Positions 35,721 through 63,449 of a stretch of 64,000 nt of DNA are shown here, piece by piece. The DNA is from a virus. The stretch's first letter is position 1, and each line of letters starts with the position of its first letter. The stretch is taken from IMG/VR virus record IMGVR_UViG_3300020383_000006, positions 1-64,000 of that record. One strand, given 5' to 3'. The notes under the pieces are model-generated. The model was not told the origin of the DNA, searched no databases, and saw nothing but the letters and a program-made list of their open reading frames with translations. Made by a program: the position numbers and the translations under genes.

Positions 35721-35774
35721 ATTTAAACTTTCAATGTAATTATGGTAATATATTTAATTTAAAAAGTAAACCTT

Positions 35775-50973: not shown

Positions 50974-51002
50974 TTTACTCTCCTTTGAAATTTTAGTATC
51001 AT
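50974..51002 (+). promoter_or_regulatory. T4-type early promoter for rIIA
   Basis: TTTACT-N17-TATCAT. Confidence 0.75.
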
Positions 51003-51047: not shown

Positions 51048-53390
51048 ATGAAACTTTTTGACGAAAAAAGAACCCTTCTTTCCAACGTAGAAAATAAAAG
51101 TAAAATGCGGATTGAAGCATCATCCAAGATGTTTGAAATCCTCAGTTCTAAAATCTACAAATATAAACCAGCTGCCATAGTACGTGAACTTTCTTCAAAC
51201 TGTTATGATTCGCATGTTGAAGCTGGTATTCCAGAAAAACCTTTCACTGTAGTATTACCAAGTAAAATGCACAGTTACGTAGAATTTATTGACTATGGTA
51301 CTGGTATGTCACATGAAGATGTTGTAAACATTTTCACGGTTTATGGTGTTTCCACTAAGAATAATTCAAACAGTGCAATTGGTGCATTTGGTATGGGCGC
51401 TAAAACGCCTTTTGCATACGCCAAATCATTTATTGTTGAAACCGTTAAAGATGGTATCAAACGTTTCTATAATCTATATCTTGATGAATCAAGTGAGCCT
51501 TCTTACTCATTACAAGCCGAAGTAGAAACTGATGAAGGGAATGGAACAAAAATTAAAATTCCAGTTCGCGAAGAACATTACCACAAATTTGTTTCTGAAG
51601 CCGAATTTATTCTTTCATTTTTTGAAGTTCGTCCTGAAATAAACTATGCAGGGAATTTTGAATTTGTGGTTTCTGAAGAAAAAGTTAAAGAATTTTACGA
51701 ACAAGGGTTCATGCGGTTAAATATTGAACGAAGTGAATCTGAATTGTATAACTCATACCGTGATATCTACGCAGTTATGGGACCAGTTTGCTACCCCATT
51801 GATTTTTCTGATATCGGTATTAGTTCATACGAAATTTCTAGAAAACTTCCTGGACTTAAAAATGATTTGTTTAGCGGTAATGATACCATTTTTATTCAGT
51901 TTGAAATAGGTGAATTAGAAGTTAATGCTTCACGTGAAGCACTTTCTATTGACCAAGATTCAAATTCCAAAACTGTAGAAAATATCAGTAATAAAGTGAA
52001 AGAAATTAATGATCGGTTATTAAAAGAATTTGAAGATCATATTTCAAATGCTTCTAACCGAGTAGAAATGTTATCTAACCTTTATGAATATAATAAGTCA
52101 ATTTTTGAATACCGTGGAAATTGGAAATTTGAAATTGCTTTACAAAGTGTTTATTATAAGGAAAAAACGCTTCAGTCCCATTTAAAAGGAACGCTTTTGG
52201 GTCGCAATATCAATGTATATTCTTGTGAAGTACCTAAATCAAGAAAACGCTTTAATTCTAGAAATAACTTGTTACCAAGGTTTTTGTTTGATAATTACGG
52301 TAACAAAAGAAACTTTTTCGTTATTTTTGAAGATGCAGAAACTCATTTAACGACTGAATCATGGATGGGTTTTTATGCTAACGAAATTGAATATAACCTA
52401 AGAAACCAAGATTTATTGGTAAAGTTTAAAGGTAAAAAATCTGATTTAAAACTAGAGCGTTTGGCTAAATTGTTACCAGTTTTTGAACCCGAAGATTTTA
52501 ACGTTATTACTTTGTCAGAAATCCTTTCTGAACGGAAACGTATCATGCGGGAACGTCGGGTTTCTAGCGATGTAGATTCTATTACAAATAGACCCAAAAC
52601 TGAATTTAAGGCAAAAGGGTTAATTGCTAGAAATGAACCTTATACTAATTATTACCATAAAGGCAAGAAAGATATTAAAATAAAAATTCGTGAATCTAGA
52701 AATCAGGTTCGTAAGCCAGAATCAGAAAAAAGTATTTTGTATTTTTATCTGGAAAATGACTCTGGTGTATTACCTAAAAACCTTGGTATCAAATTGATTT
52801 CATTTTACCACAAATTCTTCACAAACACTTCTTACAAAGAATTTGTGTTAGTTTATAAAAACAAAATGAACGCAAAGCGAATTGAAGCTTCAGGTATCCA
52901 AAGTTTTAATGGTTTAATTAAAAAGATTGTTTCTGATAGAAAATTTTTAAGGTTCTTAAAAATATATGATATTTTAAGGAATTCAGAAAATTATAAAATA
53001 GATATTTTTGAATATAAAATTGGAACTCATCGAGAAAATGAATTAAAAGAATTCATTAAGAAAGAAGTTCTTGAGGAAGGCTTGGTTAGAATCTATTACA
53101 AATATGATTTTTTAGAAAATGAACTTGTTAATAAACTGGGTGAAAATGTTGTTGAACTGTTGTTCCAATTAAGGGAAAACTTCTATGATATTTCTACAAT
53201 TCTTGCTGTTTCACCTTTATTTAATACCGTTTACTTTGATAACCTTTTAGGCGAAATTAGTGACCCTAAAACTGAAAATAATAATAACATCGAGGATGAT
53301 TTTCCTATGTTAAAATATGTTCCTCAACACAATTTAACCTTTCAAGACAAGGTTGATGTTTCGAAATATATTCATTCGTACTTTGAATAG
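51048..53390 (+). CDS. rIIA: RIIA protein
   Basis: LSSKIY..K..AIVREL.SN..D, DYGTGM, STK, GAFGMG.K.PFAY, SREALS; precedes rIIB. Confidence 0.93.
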   Translation: MKLFDEKRTLLSNVENKSKMRIEASSKMFEILSSKIYKYKPAAIVRELSSNCYDSHVEAGIPEKPFTVVLPSKMHSYVEFIDYGTGMSHEDVVNIFTVYGVSTKNNSNSAIGAFGMGAKTPFAYAKSFIVETVKDGIKRFYNLYLDESSEPSYSLQAEVETDEGNGTKIKIPVREEHYHKFVSEAEFILSFFEVRPEINYAGNFEFVVSEEKVKEFYEQGFMRLNIERSESELYNSYRDIYAVMGPVCYPIDFSDIGISSYEISRKLPGLKNDLFSGNDTIFIQFEIGELEVNASREALSIDQDSNSKTVENISNKVKEINDRLLKEFEDHISNASNRVEMLSNLYEYNKSIFEYRGNWKFEIALQSVYYKEKTLQSHLKGTLLGRNINVYSCEVPKSRKRFNSRNNLLPRFLFDNYGNKRNFFVIFEDAETHLTTESWMGFYANEIEYNLRNQDLLVKFKGKKSDLKLERLAKLLPVFEPEDFNVITLSEILSERKRIMRERRVSSDVDSITNRPKTEFKAKGLIARNEPYTNYYHKGKKDIKIKIRESRNQVRKPESEKSILYFYLENDSGVLPKNLGIKLISFYHKFFTNTSYKEFVLVYKNKMNAKRIEASGIQSFNGLIKKIVSDRKFLRFLKIYDILRNSENYKIDIFEYKIGTHRENELKEFIKKEVLEEGLVRIYYKYDFLENELVNKLGENVVELLFQLRENFYDISTILAVSPLFNTVYFDNLLGEISDPKTENNNNIEDDFPMLKYVPQHNLTFQDKVDVSKYIHSYFE

Positions 53391-53481: not shown

Positions 53482-54468
53482 ATGGCAGTTCAGTGTTTGA
53501 ACCAAATTGAAAAACGTGCAATTTACGATTCATTTAAAGATGGTGCTTCTAAGCGTTCACTCGCTAAAAAGTATGAAGTATCTGATAAAACGATCAAACG
53601 CGTGATTGATGAAATTGAATCTGAAAGTGAAACTACGGTTGTAGGTACAAATGAACCTGAACCACAAGAACAAACTGAAACGGTCGAAGAAAAAACCGTT
53701 GATTCAAGTTTAGAAGGCGTTCATTTCAACTTTACTTTGTGTTCTGATTCAATTTCAATTACTCATATGCTAAACGGTGAAATGGTCTCTCATAACATCG
53801 ATGAGAACCATGAAAAGTTTGAATGGGCATACGGGTTGATTATGGAATCTCGCGGCTCCCAGGAGTCTTTGCGGGAGGTTGTGGAGGAAGTTTCTACTAA
53901 AGTTAAACTGGAAACATTGACATTCGGGCGTTTAAAAGTAGAACCTGAAATTGGGGAAATGACTTATACCTTTGATGACGGGTATGTTCACCAATTCCAC
54001 GGTCGTTTATTGGAACGGGTTGTAGATTCAGTTGTAAGCGGTAATGAATCCAAACTTAACAGCCTTGTAAACTTTAGTAAACTGTTGATGGAAAACCCAT
54101 CTAATCGATCGGTTAATGAACTTTATAACTTCCTTGACCATAACTGTATTCAAATTGATGAAGAAGGTATGGTTATTGCATTTAAGAAAGTCCGTGAAAA
54201 CTTTACTGACGTTCACAGCGGAAAATTTGATAACTCTATCGGTAGTAAACCGCGAGTTAACCGAAACCAAGTAGATGAAGACTCACAAGTAACTTGTTCA
54301 TACGGGTTACATGTTTGCGCCAGTTCATACCTTAGTTCATTCGGTGGCACTAAAACAGTTAAAGTTAAAGTTCATCCGAAAGACTTTGTTGCTATCCCAA
54401 GGGATTATAAAAACGCAAAGGCTCGTGTTTGTGGTTATGAAGTTATTGATGAAGTTACTAACTGGTAA
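53482..54468 (+). CDS. rIIB: RIIB protein
   Basis: N-terminal HTH, NPS.RSV.ELY.FL, AFKKV, CS.GLH, HP.D.V.IP.DY...K.RVC.Y; own promoter 53405-53433. Confidence 0.95.
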   Translation: MAVQCLNQIEKRAIYDSFKDGASKRSLAKKYEVSDKTIKRVIDEIESESETTVVGTNEPEPQEQTETVEEKTVDSSLEGVHFNFTLCSDSISITHMLNGEMVSHNIDENHEKFEWAYGLIMESRGSQESLREVVEEVSTKVKLETLTFGRLKVEPEIGEMTYTFDDGYVHQFHGRLLERVVDSVVSGNESKLNSLVNFSKLLMENPSNRSVNELYNFLDHNCIQIDEEGMVIAFKKVRENFTDVHSGKFDNSIGSKPRVNRNQVDEDSQVTCSYGLHVCASSYLSSFGGTKTVKVKVHPKDFVAIPRDYKNAKARVCGYEVIDEVTNW

Positions 54469-54527: not shown

Positions 54528-54755
54528 ATGAAACAAGAAAGAGATATTTTAAGTGAAATTGATAATATTATTGAGACCGAACGGAAACAAGGTAATATTG
54601 TAGACCAAACTGAAGTTGGTGATATTATCAAACAATTAGAAAAATTAAGTTATAACGAATTAAAGTTAATTGAAGTTCGTTTAATTAACCTTAAAAACAG
54701 TAAGAAGCCTGACGTTAAAAAAGGTCAAGATGAACCACCAACGTTTAGTTTATAA
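54528..54755 (+). CDS. Hypothetical protein
   Basis: ORF with SD GAGG. Confidence 0.55.
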   Translation: MKQERDILSEIDNIIETERKQGNIVDQTEVGDIIKQLEKLSYNELKLIEVRLINLKNSKKPDVKKGQDEPPTFSL

Positions 54756-54783
54756 TTATTTTTAAATTATTTTCAAAAAAAGG

Positions 54784-54812
54784 TTTACTTTTATTTTTAA
54801 CTGATTTAATAT
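54784..54812 (+). promoter_or_regulatory. T4-type early promoter for the tRNA-operon leader
   Basis: GTTTACT-N17-TAATAT with an A/T-rich UP region. Confidence 0.8.
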
Positions 54813-54897
54813 GATCTTCACGGTTTAGGGAATTTTAAATTTCAAATTACCTAAATAATAATAGATTCAAAATTTTTAGGATTAACGGAATTCAATT

Positions 54898-55035
54898 ATG
54901 TTATCATTACGATTAGAAAAAGCGACAAAAGGGTATCAGCATAAATCTGCTGAGACGGGTTCGTTTTATTCTAAATCTGATAGTAATAATATTGAACCGA
55001 AAAACGGGCTTTTTGAAGTAGGGGTTTGGGATTAA
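54898..55035 (+). CDS. 45-aa putative leader peptide (not in ORF track)
   Basis: MLSLRLEKATKGYQHKSAETGSFYSKSDSNNIEPKNGLFEVGVWD*; overlaps the antiterminator 5' arm. Confidence 0.65.
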   Translation: MLSLRLEKATKGYQHKSAETGSFYSKSDSNNIEPKNGLFEVGVWD

Positions 55036-55092
55036 ACTCCAAAAGATAAAAATCTTACTTCAAAAAGCCCAGCCTAAAAAGCTGGGTTTTTT
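55006..55092 (+). terminator. Attenuator: antiterminator (55006-55022/55054-55070) overlapping an intrinsic terminator (55062-55092)
   Basis: GGGCTTTTTGAAGTA pairs perfectly with TACTTCAAAAAGCCC; the competing hairpin is GCCCAGC-CTAAAAA-GCTGGGT-TTTTT. Confidence 0.8.
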
Positions 55093-55167
55093 ATTACATA
55101 TAGAAAATTTGAATTACAATAAAGAAATTTAATTTACGAATCAAGTTTCCTTATTATAGTTTAAAAA

Positions 55168-55180
55168 TGTTCTTTAACAA
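55168..55180 (+). promoter_or_regulatory. Nus antitermination boxA-like site
   Basis: TGTTCTTTAACAA matches GYTCTTTAANA, ending 17 nt before the first tRNA. Confidence 0.65.
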
Positions 55181-55197
55181 ATTGGGTTCTAGACAGT

Positions 55198-55273
55198 GGT
55201 GGTAGTGGCAGAGTGGTTATGCCCTCGGTTGTGATCCGAGATCACGTGGGTTCAAATCCCATCTACCACCCCA
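55198..55273 (+). tRNA. tRNA-His(GTG)
   Basis: G-1/C73, CTCGG-TTGTGAT-CCGAG, CCA. Confidence 0.95.
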
Positions 55274-55286
55274 AAGTCTTACTTGT

Positions 55287-55359
55287 ACTCCCATCGTCTA
55301 GTGGTCTAGGACACTTGCCTTTCACGCAGGGAACAGGGGTTCAAATCCCCTTGGGAGTA
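55287..55359 (+). tRNA. tRNA-Glu(TTC), CCA not encoded
   Basis: CTTGC-CTTTCAC-GCAGG. Confidence 0.92.
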
Positions 55360-55375
55360 CAAGTAAGATTTAAAA

Positions 55376-55453
55376 GGCGGAGTGGACTGGAGTTGGTTCC
55401 AGCTCAGGCTCATAACCTGAATGACGTAGGTTCGAATCCTACCTCCGCAACCA
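55376..55453 (+). tRNA. tRNA-Met(CAT), initiator-like
   Basis: 1:72 mismatch, TCAGG-CTCATAA-CCTGA, ACCA. Confidence 0.88.
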
Positions 55454-55459
55454 GTTTGT

Positions 55460-55534
55460 AGTGGTATAGCTCAGCGGTAGAGCAAACTCTTGATAAGGGT
55501 TAGGTCGCTGGTTCAAATCCAGCTACCACTACCA
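55460..55534 (+). tRNA. tRNA-Ile(GAT)
   Basis: AACTC-TTGATAA-GGGTT, ACCA. Confidence 0.93.
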
Positions 55535-55543
55535 AATTTAAAA

Positions 55544-55629
55544 GGACGTGCGGCAAAGTTGGTGAGTTGCGGCAGACTGTAAATCTGTTACCTCAGGTTA
55601 AGAAGGTTCGAATCCTTCCACGTCCACCA
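55544..55629 (+). tRNA. tRNA-Tyr(GTA)
   Basis: GCAGA-CTGTAAA-TCTGT, long variable arm, ACCA. Confidence 0.95.
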
Positions 55630-55637
55630 GTTTCGAA

Positions 55638-55766
55638 AGCGCCACACTAGCGTGATTAGACTTCATCATCTACGTGATGTATGGTGCATACCAAGATAAA
55701 GTAACCTGAAGTAGTGTTCCGGTGAAATTGAAAGGAAGATAAGGTTCAAGTCCTTAACTGATGCTG
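55638..55766 (+). ncRNA. tRNA-like ncRNA with a T-arm
   Basis: TAAGG-TTCAAGT-CCTTA near the 3' end; terminal pairing AGCGCCA/TGATGCT; no anticodon arm. Confidence 0.5.
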
Positions 55767-55778
55767 AAGAATTTTAAA

Positions 55779-55857
55779 CTCCGTGTAATATCAGTCTGGT
55801 CAGATGGCTCGATTTGGAATCGAGAGGTCGTAGGTTCAAATCCTACCACGGAGACCA
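55779..55857 (+). tRNA. tRNA-Pro(TGG)
   Basis: CTCGA-TTTGGAA-TCGAG, ACCA. Confidence 0.93.
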
Positions 55858-55862
55858 ATTTT

Positions 55863-55918
55863 GGTTATATGCTTATAACTAATAGTTATTATACGCAAGC
55901 CATAATTTTTAGTATAAT
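55863..55918 (+). promoter_or_regulatory. Early promoter with conserved upstream element (copy 3)
   Basis: GGTTATATGCTTATAACTAATAGTTATTATAC-N18-TATAAT. Confidence 0.7.
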
Positions 55919-55976
55919 ATTTGCGTTGGTTGGGAAGATCAACGTTAATTAACTAAAATTGAAGGAAATCTATATT

Positions 55977-56204
55977 ATGGCTATTAAACCATTATCTGAA
56001 AAACCAGTTGCTTCAAAACAAGAAATTGATTTATCTGGTCCAGATGGAAACGCTTTTGTTTTGTTTGGTTATGCTAAAAATTATGCAAAACAATTAGGTT
56101 TAGACGGTAATAAAATCGTTGAAGAAATGAAAAGCGGTGACTACGAAAATTTGTTAAATGTTTTTGATAGTTATTTCGGTGAGTTTGTAACTCTTTATCG
56201 CTAA
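55977..56204 (+). CDS. Small hypothetical protein
   Basis: IDLSGPDGNAFVL, EMKSGDYENLL; SD AAGGA. Confidence 0.7.
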   Translation: MAIKPLSEKPVASKQEIDLSGPDGNAFVLFGYAKNYAKQLGLDGNKIVEEMKSGDYENLLNVFDSYFGEFVTLYR

Positions 56205-56213
56205 TAGAATTTT

Positions 56214-56241
56214 GTGAGCCGAATATTCGGCTCACTTTTTT
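56214..56241 (+). terminator. Intrinsic terminator inside the tRNA array
   Basis: GTGAGCCGAA-TA-TTCGGCTCAC-TTTTTT. Confidence 0.75.
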
Positions 56242-56244
56242 ACT

Positions 56245-56324
56245 GGAGTATGGGACTGCTAGGTGTGGTCGCTGGCCTGTCACGTCAGATGTTCAGAGGG
56301 GTTCGAATCCCCTATACTCCGCCA
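56245..56324 (+). tRNA. tRNA-Asp(GTC)
   Basis: CTGGC-CTGTCAC-GTCAG, GCCA. Confidence 0.92.
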
Positions 56325-56329
56325 TTTTT

Positions 56330-56404
56330 GGGGAATTAGCTCAGCGGTAGAGCGACTGCCTGTTAAGCAGTTGGCCATTGGTTCGAATCCAATATTCCCC
56401 GCCA
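56330..56404 (+). tRNA. tRNA-Asn(GTT)
   Basis: ACTGC-CTGTTAA-GCAGT, GCCA. Confidence 0.95.
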
Positions 56405-56409
56405 ATTTT

Positions 56410-56487
56410 GGGTCGGTAGCCAAGTCAGGTGAAGGCAATGCACTTTTAATGCATGGATCGAAGGTTCAAATCCTTCTCGACCCACCA
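56410..56487 (+). tRNA. tRNA-Lys(TTT)
   Basis: ATGCA-CTTTTAA-TGCAT, ACCA. Confidence 0.95.
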
Positions 56488-56492
56488 ATTTT

Positions 56493-56564
56493 GGGGCTGG
56501 TTCTTGGTGACGGAAGATGGTTTGCAACCATTTGAGGAGGGTTCGATTCCCTCTAGCTCCACCA
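56493..56564 (+). tRNA. tRNA-Ala(TGC) with reduced D region
   Basis: GGGGCTG/TAGCTCC with G3-U70 and A73; GATGG-TTTGCAA-CCATT. Confidence 0.8.
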
Positions 56565-56571
56565 AATACAG

Positions 56572-56677
56572 ATTATTTTGTACTGGCGCAATACATGAGT
56601 TCTTTCCTAGGTTTTTTAAAAAGGCTCCGGCTTCCGCTGGCTAATAGGTTGAATGCGGGGCGTCAGTACAAAATAAT
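56572..56677 (+). ncRNA. ~106-nt structured RNA
   Basis: 18-bp closing stem ATTATTTTGTACTGGCGC/GCGTCAGTACAAAATAAT between two tRNAs. Confidence 0.55.
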
Positions 56678-56684
56678 TTTAATT

Positions 56685-56760
56685 GCCGACATAGCTCAAC
56701 TGGGAGAGCAGCGCCTTTGTAACGCGCATGTTGGGAGTTCGAATCTCTCTGTCGGTACCA
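56685..56760 (+). tRNA. tRNA-Thr(TGT)
   Basis: GCGCC-TTTGTAA-CGCGC, ACCA. Confidence 0.92.
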
Positions 56761-56802
56761 ATTTATTGTTAGGTATTTAATTATGTTTGGTGGTAAGAAT
56801 AT

Positions 56803-56879
56803 AGGGGATTAGCCAAGCGGTCGAAGGCAACGGACTTTGATTCCGTTATTCAAGGGTTCGAATCCCTTATCCCCTCCCA
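56803..56879 (+). tRNA. tRNA-Gln(TTG)
   Basis: ACGGA-CTTTGAT-TCCGT, CCA. Confidence 0.93.
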
Positions 56880-56899
56880 ATTTTGAAAGGAGATATATT

Positions 56900-57163
56900 A
56901 TGGTTCGGTTTTATCCAAGGGAACTAGAAGTTTGGAAATCTAAGTTTGATTTTTCTGGAGATACAACCTTAGTTAATAGAACACTAAAACCATATAAAGA
57001 ATTTTATGATAGAGCTGAATTGATAAAATTTTTGAGGGAGAATGGTCCCAAATTAGATAATTCTAAATACCCTTTAGAGTTTAATTCAATAAATCACCAT
57101 TACTATGGTTATTGCCATGTCGTAAAACAAATCGGTGTTCTCGGTTGGATGATTGAGAAATAG
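56900..57163 (+). CDS. Hypothetical protein
   Basis: SD AAGGAG before ATG 56900. Confidence 0.6.
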   Translation: MVRFYPRELEVWKSKFDFSGDTTLVNRTLKPYKEFYDRAELIKFLRENGPKLDNSKYPLEFNSINHHYYGYCHVVKQIGVLGWMIEK

Positions 57164-57181
57164 GGTAAAGTTTTAATTAAT

Positions 57182-57255
57182 GCGTGTGTAAACTCAGTTG
57201 GTAGAGTTCCGTCCTTCCAAGTCGGTGGTCGCAGGTTCGAATCCTGTCACACGCT
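57182..57255 (+). tRNA. tRNA-Gly(TCC), CCA not encoded
   Basis: CCGTC-CTTCCAA-GTCGG, U73. Confidence 0.9.
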
Positions 57256-57263
57256 CAATTTAA

Positions 57264-57350
57264 GGAAAGTTGGCAGAGCGGTCTATTGCACTCGACTGCT
57301 AATCGAGAGTCCTTCGGGGCACGTGGGTTCGAATCCCACACTTTCCGCCA
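57264..57350 (+). tRNA. tRNA-Ser(GCT)
   Basis: CTCGA-CTGCTAA-TCGAG, long variable arm, GCCA. Confidence 0.95.
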
Positions 57351-57354
57351 ATTC

Positions 57355-57449
57355 GGAAGGTCGCAAGGCTGGCGTGCTTATCGGTCTTGAAAACCGTGAT
57401 GCTGAGTGAGTAGCTCGGCGTATGGGTTCGATCCCCATACCTTCCTCCA
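57355..57449 (+). tRNA. tRNA-Ser(TGA)
   Basis: CGGT-CTTGAAA-ACCG, long variable arm, CCA. Confidence 0.88.
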
Positions 57450-57471
57450 ATTTTATTAGTAAGGGTTTGTT

Positions 57472-58698
57472 ATGTATAATTTGATTAAAGGTGAAAATTT
57501 TGATATTAAAGTTTGGAACAAAGATGTTCCAATGGAATCAGGTGTATTTGACCAAGTAAGAAACCTTGCTAAATTACAAGGCGTTCAGGCTGTCTCATTA
57601 ATGCCAGATGCTCATGTTGGCAAAGGGTCAACCGTAGGGTCAGTCATCGTAACTAAAAACGTTATAATTCCTGCTACAGTAGGTGTTGACATCGGTTGCG
57701 GTATGAATGCAATCCGGTTATCTTTAAAAGCTTCTGATTTACCTGAATCACTTACTCAAGTAAGGAACGAAGTAGAAAAAATGGTTCCAGTTGGTTTTGA
57801 CCAACATTCTGACCAACGTACTGGAATTAGTGCTCACAGAAATACTCGTTCAATGCTTAATCGTTATATGAGCAAATTAGAACTTGGGTTTAATGAAATT
57901 ACTAACAAACACGAAGATATTAGCAAAATGTCTAAAAACTTACCACAAAAAGTTCTTCAACAAATCGGGACTTTGGGTGGTGGTAACCATTTCATTGAAT
58001 TATGTATTGATGAAAACCAAGATGTTTGGGTAATGCTTCATTCAGGTTCTCGTGGTGTAGGTAACGCAATTGGTCGTTACTTTATTGAAAAAGCTAAAGA
58101 AGAAATTTTAAAATCAGGGTTACAAGTACCAGAAAAAGATTTATCTTATTTATCCCATGGTACAGATTTGTATCGTGATTATATTGATTCTGTTGGTTGG
58201 GCGCAAGAGTACGCTAAAACTAACCGCAAAGCAATGATGGAATTGGTTCTTACTGCTTTGAAAAGATATTTACCGAATTTCATTGTTACGAAAGAAGCGA
58301 TTAATTGTCACCACAACTATATTTCTAAAGAAGTTCATATGTCTGAAGAAGTATATGTTACCCGTAAAGGTGCAGTTTCAGCGCAAGCTGGTGAATTAGG
58401 AATTATTCCTGGTTCTATGGGTGCTAAATCGTATATCGTTCGTGGTAAAGGTAACGTTGATTCATTTTGTTCTTGTTCACATGGCGCTGGTCGTGTAATG
58501 TCAAGAAGTAAAGCTAAGAAAATGATTTCTATTGAGGATCATTTAAAAGCAACTGATGGCGTTGATTGTCGTAAAGATAAAGGTGTATTAGATGAATCAC
58601 CTTTAGCGTATAAAGATATTGACGCAGTAATGAGTTCACAAGATGACTTGGTTGAGGTAGTTCATACTCTTAAACAAGTTATGTGTGTAAAAGGTTAA
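57472..58698 (+). CDS. rtcB: RtcB RNA 2',3'-cyclic-phosphate/5'-OH ligase
   Basis: MPDAHVGKG, VGVDIGCG, GTLGGGNHFIE, LHSGSRG, CHHNY, TRKGA, SCSHGAGR. Confidence 0.97.
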   Translation: MYNLIKGENFDIKVWNKDVPMESGVFDQVRNLAKLQGVQAVSLMPDAHVGKGSTVGSVIVTKNVIIPATVGVDIGCGMNAIRLSLKASDLPESLTQVRNEVEKMVPVGFDQHSDQRTGISAHRNTRSMLNRYMSKLELGFNEITNKHEDISKMSKNLPQKVLQQIGTLGGGNHFIELCIDENQDVWVMLHSGSRGVGNAIGRYFIEKAKEEILKSGLQVPEKDLSYLSHGTDLYRDYIDSVGWAQEYAKTNRKAMMELVLTALKRYLPNFIVTKEAINCHHNYISKEVHMSEEVYVTRKGAVSAQAGELGIIPGSMGAKSYIVRGKGNVDSFCSCSHGAGRVMSRSKAKKMISIEDHLKATDGVDCRKDKGVLDESPLAYKDIDAVMSSQDDLVEVVHTLKQVMCVKG

Positions 58699-58700
58699 TT

Positions 58701-58776
58701 GCATGGTTGGCTGAGCGTTTTAGGCGTCGGATTGCAAATCCGAATTACGGGGGTTAGAATCCCTCACCATGTTCCA
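58701..58776 (+). tRNA. tRNA-Cys(GCA)
   Basis: TCGGA-TTGCAAA-TCCGA, U73, CCA. Confidence 0.92.
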
Positions 58777-58787
58777 ACTAATTAAGG

Positions 58788-59075
58788 TTGTTTGTTATGA
58801 GTGAATTTAAAGTTGAAGAAATGGTTTGTGGTTGTGGTCGGCAAGGTAGATATATTGACCCGTCCAATGGAAAGTCTTCTTGTAATAAAAATAAACGTTG
58901 CCCAACGTACGAGCAACTAGAAAAAACAAACAAGGAACTGTACCATGACATCCTTATGTTGTTGGAAGCTTCAAATGATGTAACAACATTCAGAGAATCT
59001 ACTAAACCTTACAACAAAGCTAATTTTGTGATTGAAGAATTAACTTCAAAATATGATTTTAATAAAAGGTTTTAA
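58788..59075 (+). CDS. Cys-rich hypothetical protein
   Basis: CGCG...C....CP. Confidence 0.55.
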   Translation: MFVMSEFKVEEMVCGCGRQGRYIDPSNGKSSCNKNKRCPTYEQLEKTNKELYHDILMLLEASNDVTTFRESTKPYNKANFVIEELTSKYDFNKRF

Positions 59076-59076
59076 T

Positions 59077-59152
59077 GGGGACTTAGCTCAGCAGGTAGAG
59101 CACTAGATTGAAGATCTGGGTGTCACTGGTTCAATTCCAGTAGTCCTCACCA
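59077..59152 (+). tRNA. tRNA-Phe(GAA)
   Basis: CTAGA-TTGAAGA-TCTGG, ACCA. Confidence 0.93.
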
Positions 59153-59158
59153 AATAAT

Positions 59159-59242
59159 GCGGGTATGATGGAATGGAAGACATAGGAGACTTAAAATTTC
59201 TGGGCGAAAGCCGTGTGGGTTCGAATCCCACTACCCGTACCA
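59159..59242 (+). tRNA. tRNA-Leu(TAA)
   Basis: GGAGA-CTTAAAA-TTTCT, long variable arm, ACCA. Confidence 0.93.
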
Positions 59243-59258
59243 TTTAGAGGTTTATATT

Positions 59259-59462
59259 ATGATTAAACATTTTGAAAGTAAAACAAGCCATCATAATGAC
59301 TTTACTTACCCTGAAATCGGTAGTAAAGTAATTCACAAAGTTTACGGTAAAGTTCAAATTTTGTCAGTAGATAAACAAGAACTTGAAGCTACTGTTAGAC
59401 AAATTGATGGCGACCCAACGCTATTTTTTAGAATTGGGTTGGAAGATTTAGAAAGTTTTTAA
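59259..59462 (+). CDS. Small beta-rich hypothetical protein
   Basis: IGSKVIHKVYG; SD GAGG. Confidence 0.55.
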   Translation: MIKHFESKTSHHNDFTYPEIGSKVIHKVYGKVQILSVDKQELEATVRQIDGDPTLFFRIGLEDLESF

Positions 59463-59463
59463 T

Positions 59464-59546
59464 ACTGACGTAGTCGTGCTAAGCTACGAACTTAGTAAGC
59501 GTAAATGGATCTGAAAATGTAGGTTCGAATCCTACCGTCAGTGCCA
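59464..59546 (+). tRNA. D-armless tRNA-Arg(ACG)-like RNA
   Basis: Perfect acceptor ACTGACG/CGTCAGT-GCCA, GCTAAG-CTACGAA-CTTAGT, canonical T-arm. Confidence 0.75.
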
Positions 59547-59564
59547 CATTTTAAGGTATTATTC

Positions 59565-60005
59565 ATGTTTCGTAAAATTATTGATAAAGTATTTGCTAAA
59601 TTAGGTTATGTTAGAAATAGAAAACTTAGTGCCAAATTTTCTTTAGAGTCGGAAGAAGATCTTAAAAACCTACATAATATTGGTTGTGAATCCGAATTAG
59701 TTAATGCTATTTCTGAAGAAATTAAGGGTGACCAAACAATTTTAATGAGCCGTGATAACCCTTATGGTTGGAAACTTGAAGAACTATTAGAAAAGGTAAG
59801 AAATGAACTTATCAAGAAAAATAGACTTTTGGAAGGTGATACTTGTAAAGTTTCTGACCGTATAGTTAGAAATAACGATTTCATCATTTCTAACCTAAAA
59901 GAATGTGTTATCATCCAAAAAGAAACGATGGAAGTTTTAGATACTTTAGGTGAAAACCAAGGTCCTCTGGGTAAACCAAGAGTAGGTAATAGAAATGAAA
60001 AATAA
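59565..60005 (+). CDS. Hypothetical protein
   Basis: ORF; ATG start after the tRNA. Confidence 0.6.
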   Translation: MFRKIIDKVFAKLGYVRNRKLSAKFSLESEEDLKNLHNIGCESELVNAISEEIKGDQTILMSRDNPYGWKLEELLEKVRNELIKKNRLLEGDTCKVSDRIVRNNDFIISNLKECVIIQKETMEVLDTLGENQGPLGKPRVGNRNEK

Positions 60006-60132
60006 AGAACTTTCAGATAAACAAAAACGCCTTTTAAAAGAAGGTTATGAAAAATTGGGTTTAATATCCAAGTTACTTGATAAAGCATTCTTTAATGCTA
60101 TGTTGAAATCTTAACTTTAGGATTTTTATATT

Positions 60133-60486
60133 ATGGAATTAGTGAAACAAGACTTTTTTAAAATAGATGAAAACGGTAATGAACATGAACTAACTTATTA
60201 TTTTGGTTTAAAGCAGTGGCAAAGTATTATGGATAAAAATAATATGTACCAAGTTATGCTCTTTGCTGAATATATCTATGATAATACCGTTGAACGGTTT
60301 ACAAAAAATAGGTTCATTGGTTGTGGTTTAGCGAATGAAGTTATTAAGTTAACAGGCGTTAAAATTTTTAACTATGGTTCTGTTAAGTTAGCTTTATCTA
60401 AGTTACTCCTTCAAGAAGAAGATTCTTTTGTAGGAGAAATCCATTTTCAACTTTCAGAAATAATGAAAATGAATAACAATAAATAA
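60133..60486 (+). CDS. Hypothetical protein
   Basis: ORF with SD. Confidence 0.55.
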   Translation: MELVKQDFFKIDENGNEHELTYYFGLKQWQSIMDKNNMYQVMLFAEYIYDNTVERFTKNRFIGCGLANEVIKLTGVKIFNYGSVKLALSKLLLQEEDSFVGEIHFQLSEIMKMNNNK

Positions 60487-60515
60487 TTGTAACTTCACGA
60501 TATAAAGGTTAGAAA

Positions 60516-60896
60516 ATGAAAACATTTAAAGAATTTTTGGTTGAGGGTTCTACTTGGGATTCAATATCTTCAGAACTTAGAAAACATAAAGTTTTTAAAA
60601 ACGGTATGTTGAGGACACCAAGAACTGATGGGACGTATGGTGTTTTTTACTATCATAAAAAATCAGGACTTTATGGTTTGGTTATTGATGCGGATGATAA
60701 AGGCTTTTACTACACTATTTCTAGTGGCAAGTATTATTTACCATACGCTGCTGAATTAGTTTCTTCCAAAGAATTATATATATTTAAAACGAGAAACGCT
60801 CCAAAACACGCTGAAAAATACATTTTAGAAAAAATCGGTGGTGAGAACCCAACTTTGAATAGTGATACTGTGTTAGAAAATTCATTTAAAGAATAA
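60516..60896 (+). CDS. Putative internal head protein
   Basis: MKTFKEFLVE; ATAAATA upstream (~60479-60485). Confidence 0.65.
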   Translation: MKTFKEFLVEGSTWDSISSELRKHKVFKNGMLRTPRTDGTYGVFYYHKKSGLYGLVIDADDKGFYYTISSGKYYLPYAAELVSSKELYIFKTRNAPKHAEKYILEKIGGENPTLNSDTVLENSFKE

Positions 60897-60906
60897 TAAT
60901 TTCTAT

Positions 60907-60991
60907 ACCTCAGTGGCGGAATTGGTAGACGCGCTAGATTTAGGTTCTAGTCCCGAAAGGGGTGGGAGTTCGATTCTCCCCTGAGGTACCA
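60907..60991 (+). tRNA. tRNA-Leu(TAG)
   Basis: CTAGA-TTTAGGT-TCTAG, variable arm, ACCA. Confidence 0.95.
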
Positions 60992-61013
60992 AATTGAATA
61001 GGCGGATAAGAAA

Positions 61014-61562
61014 ATGAGGGTTTTAAAATTAGACAAGGCAGGTACTCCAGAAAAATGGATATCTAGAGAAGATGCGGCTGTTGCGTATGCTAAAGACCAA
61101 GTCCTTTGGGAACTTGGTAATTCTGAAGCTATGTTCGGCGGTATGAATAGAAACCTTGGAATTCAAAGCCACATTGATATCGCGCCTATTATTGCATGCG
61201 ATTCACTAAGTAAATTAAGAGATAAAACAACATTTAGACTTTCTAATGCCGCTTTATTCAAAAGAGACAATTTCCAATGTATGTACTGTGGAAGGCATTT
61301 TAATAGAGGTAATTTGACTCGAGACCATATAACTCCAAGAGTACAAGGTGGTCCGGATATTTGGGAAAACGTTATTACTGCTTGTGTGCGTTGTAATACA
61401 CATAAAGGTGGTAGAACGCCTGAAGAAGCTAATATGGAATTATTAGCTATTCCTTTTGCACCGAACTTATTTGAATTTATGTACCTTAAAAGTCATAAAA
61501 TATTAGCGGATCAAATGGAATTTCTATCTAGTAAATTTAGTGGTCAGAGGGTTTGGCAGTGA
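61014..61562 (+). CDS. HNH endonuclease (McrA-like)
   Basis: RDNFQCMYCG, TRDHITP...GG...WEN.ITAC.RCN.HKG. Confidence 0.9.
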   Translation: MRVLKLDKAGTPEKWISREDAAVAYAKDQVLWELGNSEAMFGGMNRNLGIQSHIDIAPIIACDSLSKLRDKTTFRLSNAALFKRDNFQCMYCGRHFNRGNLTRDHITPRVQGGPDIWENVITACVRCNTHKGGRTPEEANMELLAIPFAPNLFEFMYLKSHKILADQMEFLSSKFSGQRVWQ

Positions 61563-61930
61563 AAAGGGTTAGTTTAGAACTTTTTATTCCAGAAAATTCT
61601 AAAGAAAAAGTTATATACAGGACAATGGAAGAAACTGAGTACCCTGAGTTGGGTATTGTGGTTCCAAAAGGGTTTTACACTGATGGAGCTTCAGTACCTA
61701 AATTATTCAGGGGAATATTTCCTGATATACACCAATATTTCCCTGCTACTTTATTGCATGATTACCTGATATTTGAGCGCAGAAAGGTCGGTAAAATGAC
61801 TTCAAAAATCAGGAAAGAAATTGATAAAAAGTTTTACAACCAACTTTTAAAAATTGGTGTTTCTAAAACCCGATCTAAAATAATGTATTTGGGTGTTAGA
61901 ATATACGCTTTTTTCAATTATAGAAAATAA
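61553..61930 (+). CDS. DUF1353-like protein
   Basis: VPKGFYTDGASVP, ATLLHDYL, MYLGVR. Confidence 0.8.
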   Translation: MAVKRVSLELFIPENSKEKVIYRTMEETEYPELGIVVPKGFYTDGASVPKLFRGIFPDIHQYFPATLLHDYLIFERRKVGKMTSKIRKEIDKKFYNQLLKIGVSKTRSKIMYLGVRIYAFFNYRK

Positions 61931-61934
61931 TTTT

Positions 61935-62011
61935 AGTCCCTTAGCTCAGTTGGTTAGAGCGCAGTCCTTACAAGACTGATGTCTTCCGTTCGAATCGGAA
62001 AGGGACTACCA
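61935..62011 (+). tRNA. tRNA-Val(TAC)
   Basis: CAGTC-CTTACAA-GACTG, ACCA. Confidence 0.95.
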
Positions 62012-62107
62012 ATTTGTGGTAAAGGCTGGTAATACCGCCAGTTCATCCACAGCAGCCGTTCTTAGGACGCTAGGAACCGCTCCACAGCGAAAAGTGGCGT
62101 AAAGACC

Positions 62108-62136
62108 TTTACTTTTATTCAATAAAGTAGTAAGAT
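62108..62136 (+). promoter_or_regulatory. T4-type early promoter
   Basis: TTTACT-N17-TAAGAT. Confidence 0.7.
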
Positions 62137-62169
62137 ACTTTTATTGTTTTTAGTAGAGGTCTTTTTGTT

Positions 62170-62673
62170 ATGAGAGTATTATTTTTGCACGGTTATGGGT
62201 CAAGTTCAGAAACTGACAAGTTTAAGGCAATCACTTCTAATAAAGTTACCCATAAGTTTTGTCCTTATATTGAGTACAACAAAACCGATTTCCTTTCTTT
62301 GTTTACGAAATTATCCCATATTGTTGAAAAATTCAGACCTGATTTAATTATTGGTCATTCTCTAGGTGGGTATTGGGCTAAAGTGATGAGCAACGCTTAT
62401 CATATTCCATGTATTCTATTGAACCCACAGTTATTTCCAAAGAAAAAGTATGGGTTTCCTAATTTGGATAAATCTGATTTTGAAACTGGGGTTTGGACTT
62501 ATAGTTACCTTGAATCAGGCGACGACATTATTGATTATGAAAAAACTAAATTAATATTAGAAAATTATACTGACTTAGAAATCTACGAAGGCGGTCACCA
62601 TAGAATTAAAAACCTAGATTCAATAAATAGTATTATTGAAAAACATTCTAGAATAGACGGGATTTATGATTAA
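62170..62673 (+). CDS. YqiA/YcfP-like alpha/beta hydrolase
   Basis: FLHGYGSS, GHSLGG nucleophile elbow, LLNP, GGHH. Confidence 0.85.
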   Translation: MRVLFLHGYGSSSETDKFKAITSNKVTHKFCPYIEYNKTDFLSLFTKLSHIVEKFRPDLIIGHSLGGYWAKVMSNAYHIPCILLNPQLFPKKKYGFPNLDKSDFETGVWTYSYLESGDDIIDYEKTKLILENYTDLEIYEGGHHRIKNLDSINSIIEKHSRIDGIYD

Positions 62674-63259: not shown

Positions 63260-63262
63260 ATT

Positions 63263-63339
63263 GGAGATGTAGCTCAGTCGGTCAGAGCACGAAACTCATA
63301 ATTTCGGGGTCGGTGGTTCAATTCCACTCATCTCCACCA
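63263..63339 (+). tRNA. tRNA-Met(CAT), probably elongator
   Basis: CGAAA-CTCATAA-TTTCG, ACCA. Confidence 0.9.
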
Positions 63340-63363
63340 ATTTAAGATATAAATATAGTTTAT

Positions 63364-63449
63364 AAGGGTGCTGATATTGGTGTGTCGAGCGGTCTCCAAA
63401 ACCGTGATCTTAACCGATCTTGGGGGTTCGAATCCCTCCACCTTTGCCA
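63364..63449 (+). tRNA. tRNA-Trp(CCA) with long variable arm
   Basis: GCGGT-CTCCAAA-ACCGT, G73, CCA. Confidence 0.85.

What the first reader, a model, noticed from the sequence alone, without database searches (positions are those of the whole stretch)
54784..55197. Leader-peptide transcription attenuator in front of the tRNA+RtcB operon: a candidate general sensor of tRNA loss
Seen: early promoter 54784-54812, then an unlisted 45-codon ORF (54898-55035, MLSLRLEKATKGYQHKSAETGSFYSKSDSNNIEPKNGLFEVGVWD) that uses 19 of 20 amino acids (all but Cys) and 29 different codons. Codons 37-42 form the 5' arm of a perfect 15-bp helix (55006-55020 with 55056-55070), and its 3' arm overlaps the 5' arm of a strong intrinsic terminator (55062-55092), so the two structures exclude each other. 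The first tRNA starts ~105 nt later. Established: trp/his/pyrBI-type attenuators use ribosome position on a leader ORF to choose between terminator and antiterminator, and host anticodon nucleases (PrrC, RloC and others) destroy tRNAs during infection. Inference: a ribosome that keeps pace blocks the antiterminator so transcription stops, whereas stalling on any of the upstream codons frees it and switches on the replacement tRNAs and RtcB. Unlike classical leaders there is no run of one amino acid, so the ORF would sample much of the tRNA pool. I know of no described attenuator for a phage tRNA operon. Caveats: a possible promoter (TTTACG-N16-TATAGT, 55133-55160) lies after the terminator and could give basal expression; the SD is weak; high amino-acid diversity alone can occur by chance.
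Basis: partly seen in the sequence, partly recalled or inferred. Interest (0 to 1): 0.95.

Follow-up and report, generated by a model that had tools for sequence, protein, structure and literature searches.

The report
Translation-gated terminator before phage tRNA array
In a marine T4-like phage, a small probably translated gene ends inside a perfect 15-bp RNA helix that competes with the terminator in front of a 22-tRNA/RtcB array, so it may act as a ribosome-sensing switch, although the idea that it senses tRNA loss has no support.

Summary
An early promoter (54784-54812), a 45-codon ORF (54898-55035), a perfect 15-bp helix (55006-55020/55056-55070) and an intrinsic terminator (55067-55092) sharing nine bases with that helix are all present.

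New support:
- The ORF scores like a real gene in a periodic Markov model.
- A perfect helix this long is not expected by chance (0 in shuffles; 3 in 145 kb).
- Of about 25 terminator-like hairpins in the genome, this is the only one whose stem is out-competed by upstream RNA (pair probability 0.004, against 0.98 once the ORF's last codons are masked as if by a ribosome).
- In the one diverged relative (87.5% identical, contig cut before the 3' arm), the promoter, SD, open frame and 5' arm are kept.

Against:
- Only 3-4 G-C pairs are contested.
- A second promoter-like site and an exact rrn-type boxA lie after the terminator.
- There is no codon run, and the amino-acid diversity is not unusual (P=0.06).
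- No relative shows covariation.
- A stall at codons 17-29 is not predicted to relieve termination.

Verdict: a translation-gated leaky terminator is the best reading (about 0.4). An ordinary small early gene with a 3' stabilising or processing helix is close behind. The tRNA-loss sensor idea is unsupported.

The parts
54784..54812 (+). Early promoter P1 (TTTACT-N17-TAATAT, A-rich upstream; predicted start about 54819-54820)
   Evidence: It belongs to a family of about 20 intergenic (G/C)TTTACT-N16/17-TAnnnT sites in this genome; the closest look-alikes are at 35770(-) and 35518(-). The -35 block is identical in the 87.5% relative L087, which has TATGAT at the same 17-nt spacing.
54823..54856 (+). 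Conserved 5'-terminal stem-loop of the P1 transcript
   Evidence: It is paired in the minimum-energy fold of 54819-55092. The block TTAGGGAATTTTAAATTTCAA.TTACCTAAATAATA has a single change in L087, while its flanks are about 17% diverged.
54887..54889 (+). Shine-Dalgarno-like GGA at -11..-9
   Evidence: G enrichment upstream of 96 long ORFs peaks at -10, and 42% of them carry GGA. L087 has AGGA at -11..-8 through an A/G swap.
54898..55035 (+). orf45, a 45-codon ORF (leader or small early gene)
   Evidence: It scores 0.238 bits/codon in frame, against -0.71 and -1.07 in the other frames. Real-gene windows score 0.29+-0.15, and all 103 spurious small ORFs score lower. The frame is open in every variant; against L087 there are 5 synonymous and 5 non-synonymous changes. 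No homologue exists beyond a cluster at 91% identity or more.
54886..54999 (+). Long imperfect hairpin 1, spanning the SD, the start codon and codons 1-34
   Evidence: It folds at -30.4 kcal/mol. L087 folds at -29.4 in a shifted register. Random 13-substitution mutants average -20.6+-4.2 (P=0.027), but random bases placed at the same positions do as well as L087.
55006..55070 (+). Y-shaped helix (candidate antiterminator): a 15-bp perfect stem plus sub-hairpins 55021-55040 (holding the UAA stop) and 55044-55055
   Evidence: It folds at -29.6 kcal/mol. It is one of 3 perfect inverted repeats of 15 bp or more in the genome, with 0 expected. 54993-55043 is invariant in L087, and the only difference after it is a 1-nt indel in the unpaired junction. 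The rare GGG Gly codon (13% usage) is used at both Gly codons inside it.
55067..55092 (+). Intrinsic terminator (6-7 bp G+C-rich stem, 7-nt loop, U6); the first convincing + strand terminator after rIIA-rIIB-orf75-orf45
   Evidence: The core is -11.2 kcal/mol, or -15.4 with the A/U extension. The stem pair probability is 0.001-0.004 in naked RNA. It is 0.85 once RNA up to 55007 is masked and 0.98 once RNA up to 55010 or beyond is masked. The consensus scan reports it on the minus strand as well.
55133..55160 (+). Promoter-like site P2 (TTTACG-N16-TATAGT)
   Evidence: It departs from the family consensus in the last -35 base and in the spacer length, so its activity is unknown.
55168..55180 (+). 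rrn-type boxA-like sequence TGTTCTTTAACAA
Evidence: It is the only match to TGYTCTTTAACAA with one mismatch or fewer in the 145.5-kb genome.
55199..55273 (+). tRNA-His, the first of 22 + strand tRNA genes (55199-63449) that enclose RtcB (57472-58698)
   Evidence: ARAGORN, Rfam, PHROG RtcB hit at 3.7e-144.

Best explanation
The element is a translation-gated, deliberately leaky terminator. It sits at the end of the early rIIA-rIIB-orf75-orf45 unit, in front of the boxA/tRNA/RtcB array.

Proposed mechanism:
- RNA made from P1 (or from the rII promoters upstream) carries orf45.
- The last five sense codons before the sub-hairpin form the 5' arm of a -30 kcal/mol Y-helix.
- The 3' arm of that helix takes the A5GCCC that the terminator stem needs.
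- If no ribosome covers 55006-55020 when the polymerase reaches the U-tract, the Y-helix forms first. The terminator is disfavoured and transcription runs on through boxA into the tRNAs.
- If a ribosome is on codons 33-45 or at the stop codon, the 3' arm is free, the terminator folds and the transcript ends at about 55092.

What is shown: the sequence anatomy, the non-randomness of the helix, the coding signature of the ORF, and the predicted energies.

What is inferred: that the ORF is translated, that the terminator works, and that ribosome position changes read-through in vivo.

The switch most plausibly reports whether the ORF is being translated in step with transcription. It is less likely to report the supply of any particular tRNA.
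For: - This is the only terminator-like hairpin of about 25 in the genome whose stem is out-competed by the 150 nt upstream (0.004; one weak candidate is at 0.17, the rest are 0.6 or more and mostly above 0.9). In 71 terminators from unrelated viral loci, only 2.8% fall below 0.05.
- The 15-bp perfect helix is not expected by chance.
- The contested segment is the textbook layout: one strand (55062-70) is complementary to both GGGCUUUUU (55006-14) and GGGUUUUUU (55084-92).
- Masking the RNA as a ribosome at codons 34-46 would raises terminator probability to 0.98, and at codon 33 to 0.85.
- orf45 has a real-gene coding score and an SD at the phage's usual position, kept in L087 by an A/G swap.
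- 51 nt covering the 5' arm and the first sub-hairpin are invariant in a relative that is about 12% diverged elsewhere. GGG (13% usage) is used at 3 of 4 Gly codons, two of them in the helix.
- P1 is a canonical member of the phage's early-promoter family, whereas P2 is atypical.
- A strong terminator (56214-56241) lies 10 nt before tRNA-Asp inside the array. Read-through of terminators is therefore part of this operon's normal working.
Against: - Only 3-4 G-C pairs are contested. With the U-tract held in the polymerase, the two states differ by about 1-2 kcal/mol, which is within model error.
- P2 and boxA lie after the terminator and could express the tRNAs on their own. The gain from read-through may then be small.
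- There is no codon run.
- No compensatory change is available. All complete copies are 99% identical or more, and L087 stops 17 nt after the stop codon.
- One low-coverage contig (L090) carries three uncompensated changes in the helix's 3' half.
- SD/start accessibility is unremarkable, at the 27th percentile.
- Vibrio phage nt-1 has an unannotated 37-codon ORF, a terminator and a promoter-like site before its tRNA array, with an unobstructed terminator (0.92). The bare layout of small ORF, terminator and tRNAs can therefore be ordinary.
Confidence: 0.42

Rival explanations
1. orf45 is an ordinary small early gene. T4-like phages have dozens of these, and this one has its own promoter and terminator. 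The Y-helix is then a 3'-end structure of that mRNA: a stabiliser against 3' exonucleases, or a double-stranded processing site (RNase III type). The tRNA array is transcribed from P2 through boxA, and there is no regulated read-through.
For: - P1, the SD and the coding score fit a normal gene.
- P2-like and boxA sequences follow the terminator.
- nt-1 shows small ORF, terminator, promoter-like site and tRNA array with no competing helix.
- Two other long perfect helices lie in the first 1.7 kb of the array (55277/55368 around tRNA-Glu, and 56572/56677). This suggests a local theme of double-stranded processing signals.
- The 15-bp stem stacks on the 8-bp sub-hairpin, giving 23 consecutive paired bases on the 5' strand.
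Against: - A stabiliser or processing site has no need to take the terminator's own G-C pairs. No other terminator in the genome is built this way.
- In naked RNA the terminator would rarely fold, so a plain terminator function would be compromised.
- P2 is a non-canonical member of the promoter family.
Confidence: 0.3
2. This is the first reader's specific version: the leader is a general sensor of tRNA loss. Stalling at almost any codon, for example after cleavage of tRNAs by host anticodon nucleases, frees the antiterminator and induces the replacement tRNAs and RtcB. It is a narrower case of the best explanation.
For: - The regulated genes would be a near-complete tRNA set plus the RNA ligase RtcB. 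Feedback from translation to tRNA supply would make biological sense.
- The masking model gives low terminator probability for ribosomes held at codons 2-16 (0.004-0.29) and 30-32 (0.17).
Against: - Amino-acid and codon diversity is not beyond chance (P=0.063 and 0.20).
- There is no enrichment of any codon.
- Stalls at codons 17-29 give terminator probability of about 0.7 in the same model.
- Nothing in the data links the element to anticodon nucleases.
- With P2 present, the induction ratio may be small.
Confidence: 0.12
3. The roughly 274-nt P1 transcript (54819-55092) is a structured non-coding RNA, and the ORF is incidental. This would be comparable to the small stable RNAs of unknown function encoded beside the T4 tRNA genes (from my own recall).
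For: - The transcript is strongly folded: z=-7.0 for 54880-55100, and -80.4 kcal/mol for the 274 nt.
- It has its own promoter and terminator.
- Rare G-ending codons sit at paired positions.
- The peptide is an orphan.
Against: - The in-frame coding score lies inside the real-gene range and far above the other five frames.
- The SD is kept at the right spacing in L087.
- Leu4 changes TTA to CTT, two substitutions that keep the amino acid.
- No Rfam family matches.
Confidence: 0.08
4. The 15-bp inverted repeat acts at the DNA level, as a protein-binding palindrome or as a recombination or homing site in a tRNA region that also carries an HNH endonuclease gene. Its overlap with the terminator is coincidental.
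For: - It is a perfect palindrome arm pair.
- An HNH endonuclease ORF lies in the array at 61014-61562.
- The inverted repeats of this region share short words (TCTTACTT, TTGTACT).
Against: - The 35-nt spacer folds into two hairpins of its own, which fits an RNA role.
- There is no repeat family and no second copy in the genome.
- The overlap with the terminator's contested strand is exact.
Confidence: 0.05

Closest known systems
Leader-peptide transcription attenuators of amino-acid operons (trp, his, pheA, leu, thr)
   Same: Both have a short ORF upstream of an intrinsic terminator. Both have an alternative helix whose 3' strand is the terminator's 5' strand. In both, a ribosome that reaches the end of the leader favours the terminator.
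   Different: - There is no run of regulatory codons.
- No 1:2 'anti-antiterminator' pairs with the helix's 5' arm, so untranslated RNA is predicted to read through rather than super-attenuate.
- The leader is long (45 codons).
- Only 3-4 stem pairs are contested.
- The downstream genes are tRNAs, and a promoter-like site lies in between.
Ribosome-mediated attenuators that sense general translation inhibition (leaders of ermK, vmlR, lmo0919 and other resistance genes; from my own recall)
   Same: In both, a leader ORF without a codon run makes impaired translation favour an antiterminator, which induces genes that restore translation.
   Different: Those leaders respond to drug-stalled ribosomes at defined sites, are bacterial, and control protein genes. 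Here no stall site is defined, and the element is in a phage, ahead of tRNA genes.
pyrBI leader (44-codon leader peptide; from my own recall)
   Same: The leader length is similar, and in both the distance between ribosome and polymerase decides whether the terminator hairpin forms.
   Different: The polarity is opposite. In pyrBI a closely following ribosome blocks the terminator hairpin directly. Here the ribosome would block the antiterminator and so promote termination.
rrn operon leaders (tandem promoters followed by boxA antitermination)
   Same: Two promoter-like sites are followed by an exact boxA-type sequence ahead of a long untranslated stable-RNA operon.
   Different: rrn leaders have no translated ORF and no terminator between the promoters.
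Region upstream of the tRNA array of Vibrio phage nt-1 (NC_021529)
   Same: An unannotated 37-codon ORF, an intrinsic terminator about 90 nt before the first tRNA, and a promoter-like site in between.
   Different: There is no sequence similarity. The nt-1 terminator is not occluded (pair probability 0.92) and no long competing helix is present.

Membership tests
Ribosome-mediated (leader-peptide) transcription attenuator | A short translated ORF on the same transcript, upstream of the controlled genes | tested here: inconclusive
   The ORF is present, with a real-gene coding score, an SD at the usual spacing, and an open frame in all variants. Translation itself cannot be shown with these tools.
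Ribosome-mediated (leader-peptide) transcription attenuator | An intrinsic terminator between the leader ORF and the controlled genes | tested here: met
   The stem is 55067/8-55086/7 (-11.2 kcal/mol) followed by U6, and lies 107 nt before tRNA-His.
Ribosome-mediated (leader-peptide) transcription attenuator | An antiterminator helix mutually exclusive with the terminator | tested here: met
   The 15-bp helix shares 55062-55070 with the terminator. Terminator pair probability is 0.001-0.004 in the naked transcript. The exclusion is partial, with 3-4 G-C pairs contested and the states 1-5 kcal/mol apart.
Ribosome-mediated (leader-peptide) transcription attenuator | Ribosome position on the leader chooses between the two structures | not testable with these tools
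   The geometry fits: the 5' arm is codons 37-41, and masking from codon 33 onward gives terminator probability 0.85-0.98. This is a thermodynamic model only.
Ribosome-mediated (leader-peptide) transcription attenuator | Regulatory codons (a run of, or enrichment for, the sensed amino acid) | tested here: not met
   There is no run. 19 amino acids and 29 codons are within chance (P=0.063 and 0.20).
Ribosome-mediated (leader-peptide) transcription attenuator | The controlled genes depend on read-through (no promoter in between) | tested here: inconclusive
   TTTACG-N16-TATAGT at 55133-55160 is promoter-like but departs from the phage's own consensus. Its activity is unknown.
Ribosome-mediated (leader-peptide) transcription attenuator | The layout is conserved in relatives, with compensatory changes | tested here: inconclusive
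   Complete copies are 99% identical or more. The 87.5% relative keeps the promoter, SD, ORF and 5' arm, but its contig ends before the 3' arm. No other relatives were found.
Stand-alone early gene unit of a T4-like phage | An early promoter, an SD, a coding ORF, and an unobstructed intrinsic terminator | tested here: not met
   The promoter, SD and coding score are met. The terminator, however, is the only occluded one in the genome.
RNase III-type processing helix | About two turns (around 20 bp) of largely uninterrupted double-stranded RNA | tested here: inconclusive
   A 15-bp perfect stem stacks on an 8-bp sub-hairpin, giving 23 paired bases in a row on the 5' strand. The structure is a three-way junction, though, not a simple hairpin. 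Cleavage cannot be tested here.
Any curated RNA family (Rfam 15) | A covariance-model match at or near the gathering score | tested here: not met
   The only match is a chance-level mir-129 hit (22 bits, E=0.96) at 55004-55067.

The most novel reading that the evidence does not exclude
The phage uses co-transcriptional translation of a 45-codon ORF as a live read-out of the cell's translational capacity. When ribosomes fail to arrive or to finish, the antiterminator helix wins. Early transcription from P1 and the rII unit then runs on through boxA into a near-complete tRNA set and RtcB. This would be a feedback loop from translation to tRNA-gene transcription, not described for any virus as far as two literature searches and my own recall go.
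Probability: 0.15. Interest if true: 0.85.

Novelty: new variant of a known kind. Interest (0 to 1): 0.55.

Why it matters
Large phages often carry tRNA arrays, and why they do so and how the arrays are controlled is still debated. If this switch works as proposed, tRNA and RNA-repair genes would be coupled to the state of the translation machinery by an attenuator. The principle is known from bacterial amino-acid and resistance operons but has not been reported for a virus or for tRNA genes.

The element is small and self-contained, at about 310 nt. Reporter fusions and in vitro transcription-translation can test it directly, even though the phage is uncultured. If the rival reading is right, the region is an ordinary small early gene whose terminator is unusually built, and the interest is modest.

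Tried and rejected
**Searches for relatives**
- rIIB in IMG/VR gave nothing.
- RtcB in IMG/VR gave 80 loci at 65% identity or less. None has rIIB, orf75, orf45 or orf81 nearby.
- Exact and degenerate DNA patterns for the helix and for the peptide's C-terminus gave nothing in IMG/VR, JGI metagenomes or GTDB genomes.
- A 20-nt block of the 5' UTR gave only chance matches.
- An alignment-based search with the peptide gave nothing.
- The next-best rIIB proteins are 54% and 50% identical. The 40-kb contig of the latter has no tRNA array after rIIB.
- orf75 has one 78%-identical relative, on the same short contig as L087.

**Homologues of the peptide**
- The exhaustive HMMER search found the near-identical cluster plus two repeat proteins. 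These matched through a recurring GxxxYS-type stretch and were judged spurious.
- The ESM Atlas gave no usable hit. PHROGs gave none.

**Metatranscriptome contigs, not counted as evidence**
- One RNA-library contig spans the whole region at even depth and may be DNA-like.
- In another run a contig begins at 54819, the predicted P1 start, and ends at 55009, and 55010-55188 has no cover. Contigs cannot show RNA ends, and uncovered parts prove nothing.
- Runs X10 and X11 turned out to be the same species, not relatives.

**Other tests**
- SD/start sequestration by hairpin 1 is not exceptional: accessibility is at the 27th percentile of 142 genes.
- Hairpin 1 shows no covariation. All 9 changed pairs but one are broken in the window's register, although L087 refolds equally well in a shifted register.
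- A layout survey of 12 tRNA arrays in other viral loci found no terminator within 500 nt upstream of any of them.
- A -1 frameshift reading of G-AAA-AAC before the helix was considered and dropped. The first base is wrong for the slippery pattern, there is no spacer, and the -1 frame stops at once (from the sequence).
- Two literature searches found no described attenuator for a phage tRNA operon. The library lacks most older subscription papers on the T4 and T5 tRNA regions.
Full report
**Context**

The window is the first 64 kb of a 145.5-kb uncultured viral genome from IMG/VR. It has about 33% G+C. It encodes T4-type Gp23 (433 bits) and gp32, and rIIA and rIIB. The same locus occurs in Tara Oceans and other marine assemblies, so this is a marine T4-like myovirus.

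The local order on the + strand is:
- rIIA, 51048-53390
- rIIB, 53482-54468
- orf75, 54528-54755
- the finding, 54784-55197
- 22 tRNA genes from 55199 to 63449, with RtcB at 57472-58698

**The observation**

All stated elements are present.
- The 45-codon ORF runs 54898-55035.
- 55006-55020 and 55056-55070 are perfectly complementary over 15 bp. The 5' arm is codons 37-41.
- The 35 nt between the arms fold into two small hairpins. The first (55021-55040) holds the last four codons and the UAA stop. The whole is therefore a Y-shaped structure of -29.6 kcal/mol.
- The terminator is a 6-7 bp G+C-rich stem (55067/8-55086/7, -11.2 kcal/mol) followed by U6. An A5 tract in front can extend it to -15.4.
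- The two structures compete for 55062-55070.

**Is it more than chance?**

- Perfect inverted repeats of 15 bp or more with loops up to 80 nt occur three times in the genome and never in 20 Markov shuffles.
- I scored every terminator-like hairpin in the genome for the probability that its stem forms when the 150 nt upstream are present. This one scores 0.004. One doubtful candidate scores 0.17. All others score 0.6 or more, mostly above 0.9.
- In 71 terminators from 80 unrelated viral loci, only 2.8% fall below 0.05. The terminator is therefore built in a rare way.

**Is the ORF real?**

I trained a three-periodic second-order Markov model on 96 long ORFs of this genome.
- orf45 scores 0.238 bits per codon in frame. 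The shifted frames score -0.71 and -1.07, and the antisense frames are all negative.
- Real-gene windows of the same length average 0.29+-0.15.
- All 103 spurious small ORFs score lower.
- The null set lies inside genes rather than between them, which is a caveat.

Other points bearing on translation:
- The SD-like GGA sits at -11..-9, where G enrichment peaks in this phage.
- The peptide has no homologue outside a cluster at 91% identity or more, either in 5.8 billion clustered proteins or in an exhaustive HMMER pass over 1.84 billion representatives. It is an orphan, which suits a leader and a small phage early protein equally well.

**Comparative evidence**

This is thin. Nine contigs are 99% identical or more. 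Their only differences in 54700-55300 are:
- 54930 A>G (synonymous)
- C>A in codon 20 (Thr to Lys)
- 54977 C>T (Ser27Phe)
- a 2-nt length change in the A-run before P1
- three clustered changes in one coverage-5 contig, discussed below

One contig, L087, is 87.5% identical but ends 17 nt after the stop codon. In L087:
- The -35 block of P1 is identical, and a TATGAT sits at the same 17-nt spacing.
- The SD becomes AGGA.
- The frame stays open, with 5 synonymous and 5 non-synonymous changes. These include TTA to CTT at Leu4, two changes that keep the residue.
- The 51 nt from 54993 to 55043 are unchanged. The next difference is a 1-nt deletion in the unpaired junction of the Y.

With about 12% divergence elsewhere, 51 invariant bases are unlikely (about 1e-3 by my arithmetic, or about 0.04 counting synonymous sites only). 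Because nothing varies there, the stretch cannot separate peptide constraint from RNA constraint. The 3' arm of that lineage is not available, so there is no covariation test.

The low-coverage contig L090 carries three uncompensated changes (55036, 55057, 55067), all in the 3' half of the Y and nowhere else in 412 nt. These may be hairpin-associated sequencing errors or a real variant. I count them as mild evidence against.

**How exclusive are the two folds?**

- In the full naked transcript the helix pairs have probability above 0.99, and the terminator pairs 0.001 or less.
- Only the three C's (plus G55067) are truly contested. 'Helix minus three pairs plus terminator core' is -31.0 kcal/mol, against -36.0 for 'full helix plus a shifted weak hairpin'.
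- If the RNA is cut at 55086, as when the U-tract is still inside the polymerase, the gap shrinks to 1-2 kcal/mol.

I also modelled a ribosome by removing all RNA up to 14 nt past the first base of the A-site codon.

| Ribosome position (A-site codon) | Terminator probability |
|---|---|
| 2-16 | 0.004-0.29 |
| 17-29 | about 0.7 (a 3-bp CCG/CGG hairpin steals two outer helix pairs) |
| 30-32 | 0.17 |
| 33 | 0.85 |
| 34-46 | 0.98 |

The robust contrast is between no ribosome on the last codons (terminator disfavoured) and a ribosome on the last codons (terminator favoured). The claim that a stall at any upstream codon gives read-through is not robust in this model.

**Surroundings that bear on function**

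- P1 is a canonical member of a family of about 20 intergenic sites, (G/C)TTTACT-N16/17-TAnnnT. This resembles the GTTTAC-type -35 of T4 early promoters (the T4 consensus is from my recall; the family is).
- P2 (TTTACG, 16-nt spacer, TATAGT) is an atypical member.
- Directly after P2 lies TGTTCTTTAACAA. It is the only match with one mismatch or fewer to the rrn boxA consensus TGYTCTTTAACAA in the genome.
- No convincing + strand terminator lies between rIIA and 55067. This terminator therefore also ends transcripts from the rII promoters at 50974 and 53405.
- A strong terminator at 56214-56241 lies 10 nt before tRNA-Asp, with no promoter in between. Polymerases must read through terminators to express much of the array.
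- Two more long perfect helices lie nearby: 55277/55368 around tRNA-Glu, and 56572/56677 closing a -39 kcal/mol spacer structure.

**Claims that did not hold**

- The diversity of the peptide (19 amino acids, 29 codons) is within chance, P=0.063 and 0.20.
- The SD and start are not unusually buried, at the 27th percentile.
- Hairpin 1 (54886-54999) is stable in both lineages, but through a register shift and without compensatory pairs. The test against random mutants gives P=0.027 for where the changes fall and 0.33 for which bases they became.
- No Rfam family matches.
- In Vibrio phage nt-1 the tRNA array is also preceded by an unannotated 37-codon ORF, a terminator and a promoter-like site, but the terminator there is unobstructed. 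In 12 other viral tRNA arrays I found no upstream terminator at all. The competing helix, not the ORF-terminator layout, is what is special here.

**Metatranscriptomes**

Four RNA libraries hold the stretch, but only as assembled contigs.
- One contig spans everything at even depth.
- In another run a contig runs from 54819, the predicted P1 start, to 55009, and the helix, terminator and P2 stretch is uncovered.

By the tool's own rules this shows neither ends nor absence, and I do not count it.

**Verdict**

The structure is real, non-random and unusual.
- The best reading (about 0.42) is a translation-gated, leaky terminator that sets how much early transcription runs on into the boxA/tRNA/RtcB operon.
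- The main rival (about 0.30) is an ordinary small early gene whose 3' helix stabilises or processes the RNA, with the tRNAs driven from P2.
- The specific tRNA-loss sensor idea is a narrower case, at about 0.12.

In kind, this would be a new variant of ribosome-mediated attenuation: a new setting, no codon run, and read-through as the untranslated default. It is not a new category.

Noticed in passing
window 55168-55180 (+): TGTTCTTTAACAA matches the rrn boxA consensus TGYTCTTTAACAA exactly. It is the only match with one mismatch or fewer in the 145.5-kb genome. It sits between the P2 -10 element and tRNA-His, which suggests Nus-factor antitermination of the tRNA operon.
   Followed up: partly
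window 56214-56241 (+): A strong intrinsic terminator (9-bp stem, 6 G-C pairs, -15.2 kcal/mol, T6) follows orf81 and lies only 10 nt before tRNA-Asp, with no promoter in between. The downstream tRNAs therefore seem to need terminator read-through.
   Followed up: partly
window 56565-56684 (+): The 120-nt spacer between tRNA-Ala and tRNA-Thr folds at -39.1 kcal/mol. A roughly 20-bp helix closes it, with 14-bp perfect arms at 56572-85 and 56664-77. It could be an unrecognised structured RNA or a processing helix.
   Followed up: no
window 55277-55293 / 55352-55368 (+): A 17-bp perfect inverted repeat encloses tRNA-Glu and extends its acceptor stem. It shares the word TCTTACTT with the 3' arm of the helix studied here.
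   Followed up: no
window 59464-59543 (+): Rfam's tRNA model matches here (37.8 bits), but ARAGORN reports no tRNA. This may be an atypical tRNA.
   Followed up: no
window 59541-60005 (+): A 154-aa ORF inside the tRNA region has a weak match to the Gp23 major capsid family (23 bits, model positions 145-183; also PHROG 138). The real gp23 is at genome position 83191-84285, so this is probably a capsid-gene fragment.
   Followed up: no
window 54823-54856 (+): A stem-loop at the very 5' end of the predicted P1 transcript is almost unchanged in the 87.5% relative, while its flanks diverge by about 17%. It may be a 5' stabiliser or a protein-binding site.
   Followed up: partly
genome-wide, e.g. 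window 50974, 53405, 54784, 62108, 63598 (+); 35770, 35518, 34757, 31675, 25435, 21010 (-): About 20 intergenic sites form a family, (G/C)TTTACT-N16/17-TA(T/A)nnT. They are probably the phage's early promoters and resemble T4 early promoters.
   Followed up: partly
L102 (Vibrio phage nt-1, NC_021529) 3100-3361: The tRNA array of nt-1 is preceded by an unannotated 37-codon ORF, an intrinsic terminator (3252-3272 plus a T-run) and a promoter-like site, about 90 nt before the first tRNA.
   Followed up: partly
genome G000:C1 75523-75583: This is the third perfect inverted repeat with 15-bp arms in the genome (arms TTTAAACCTCTAGGA, 31-nt loop). It lies outside the window and was not examined.
   Followed up: no
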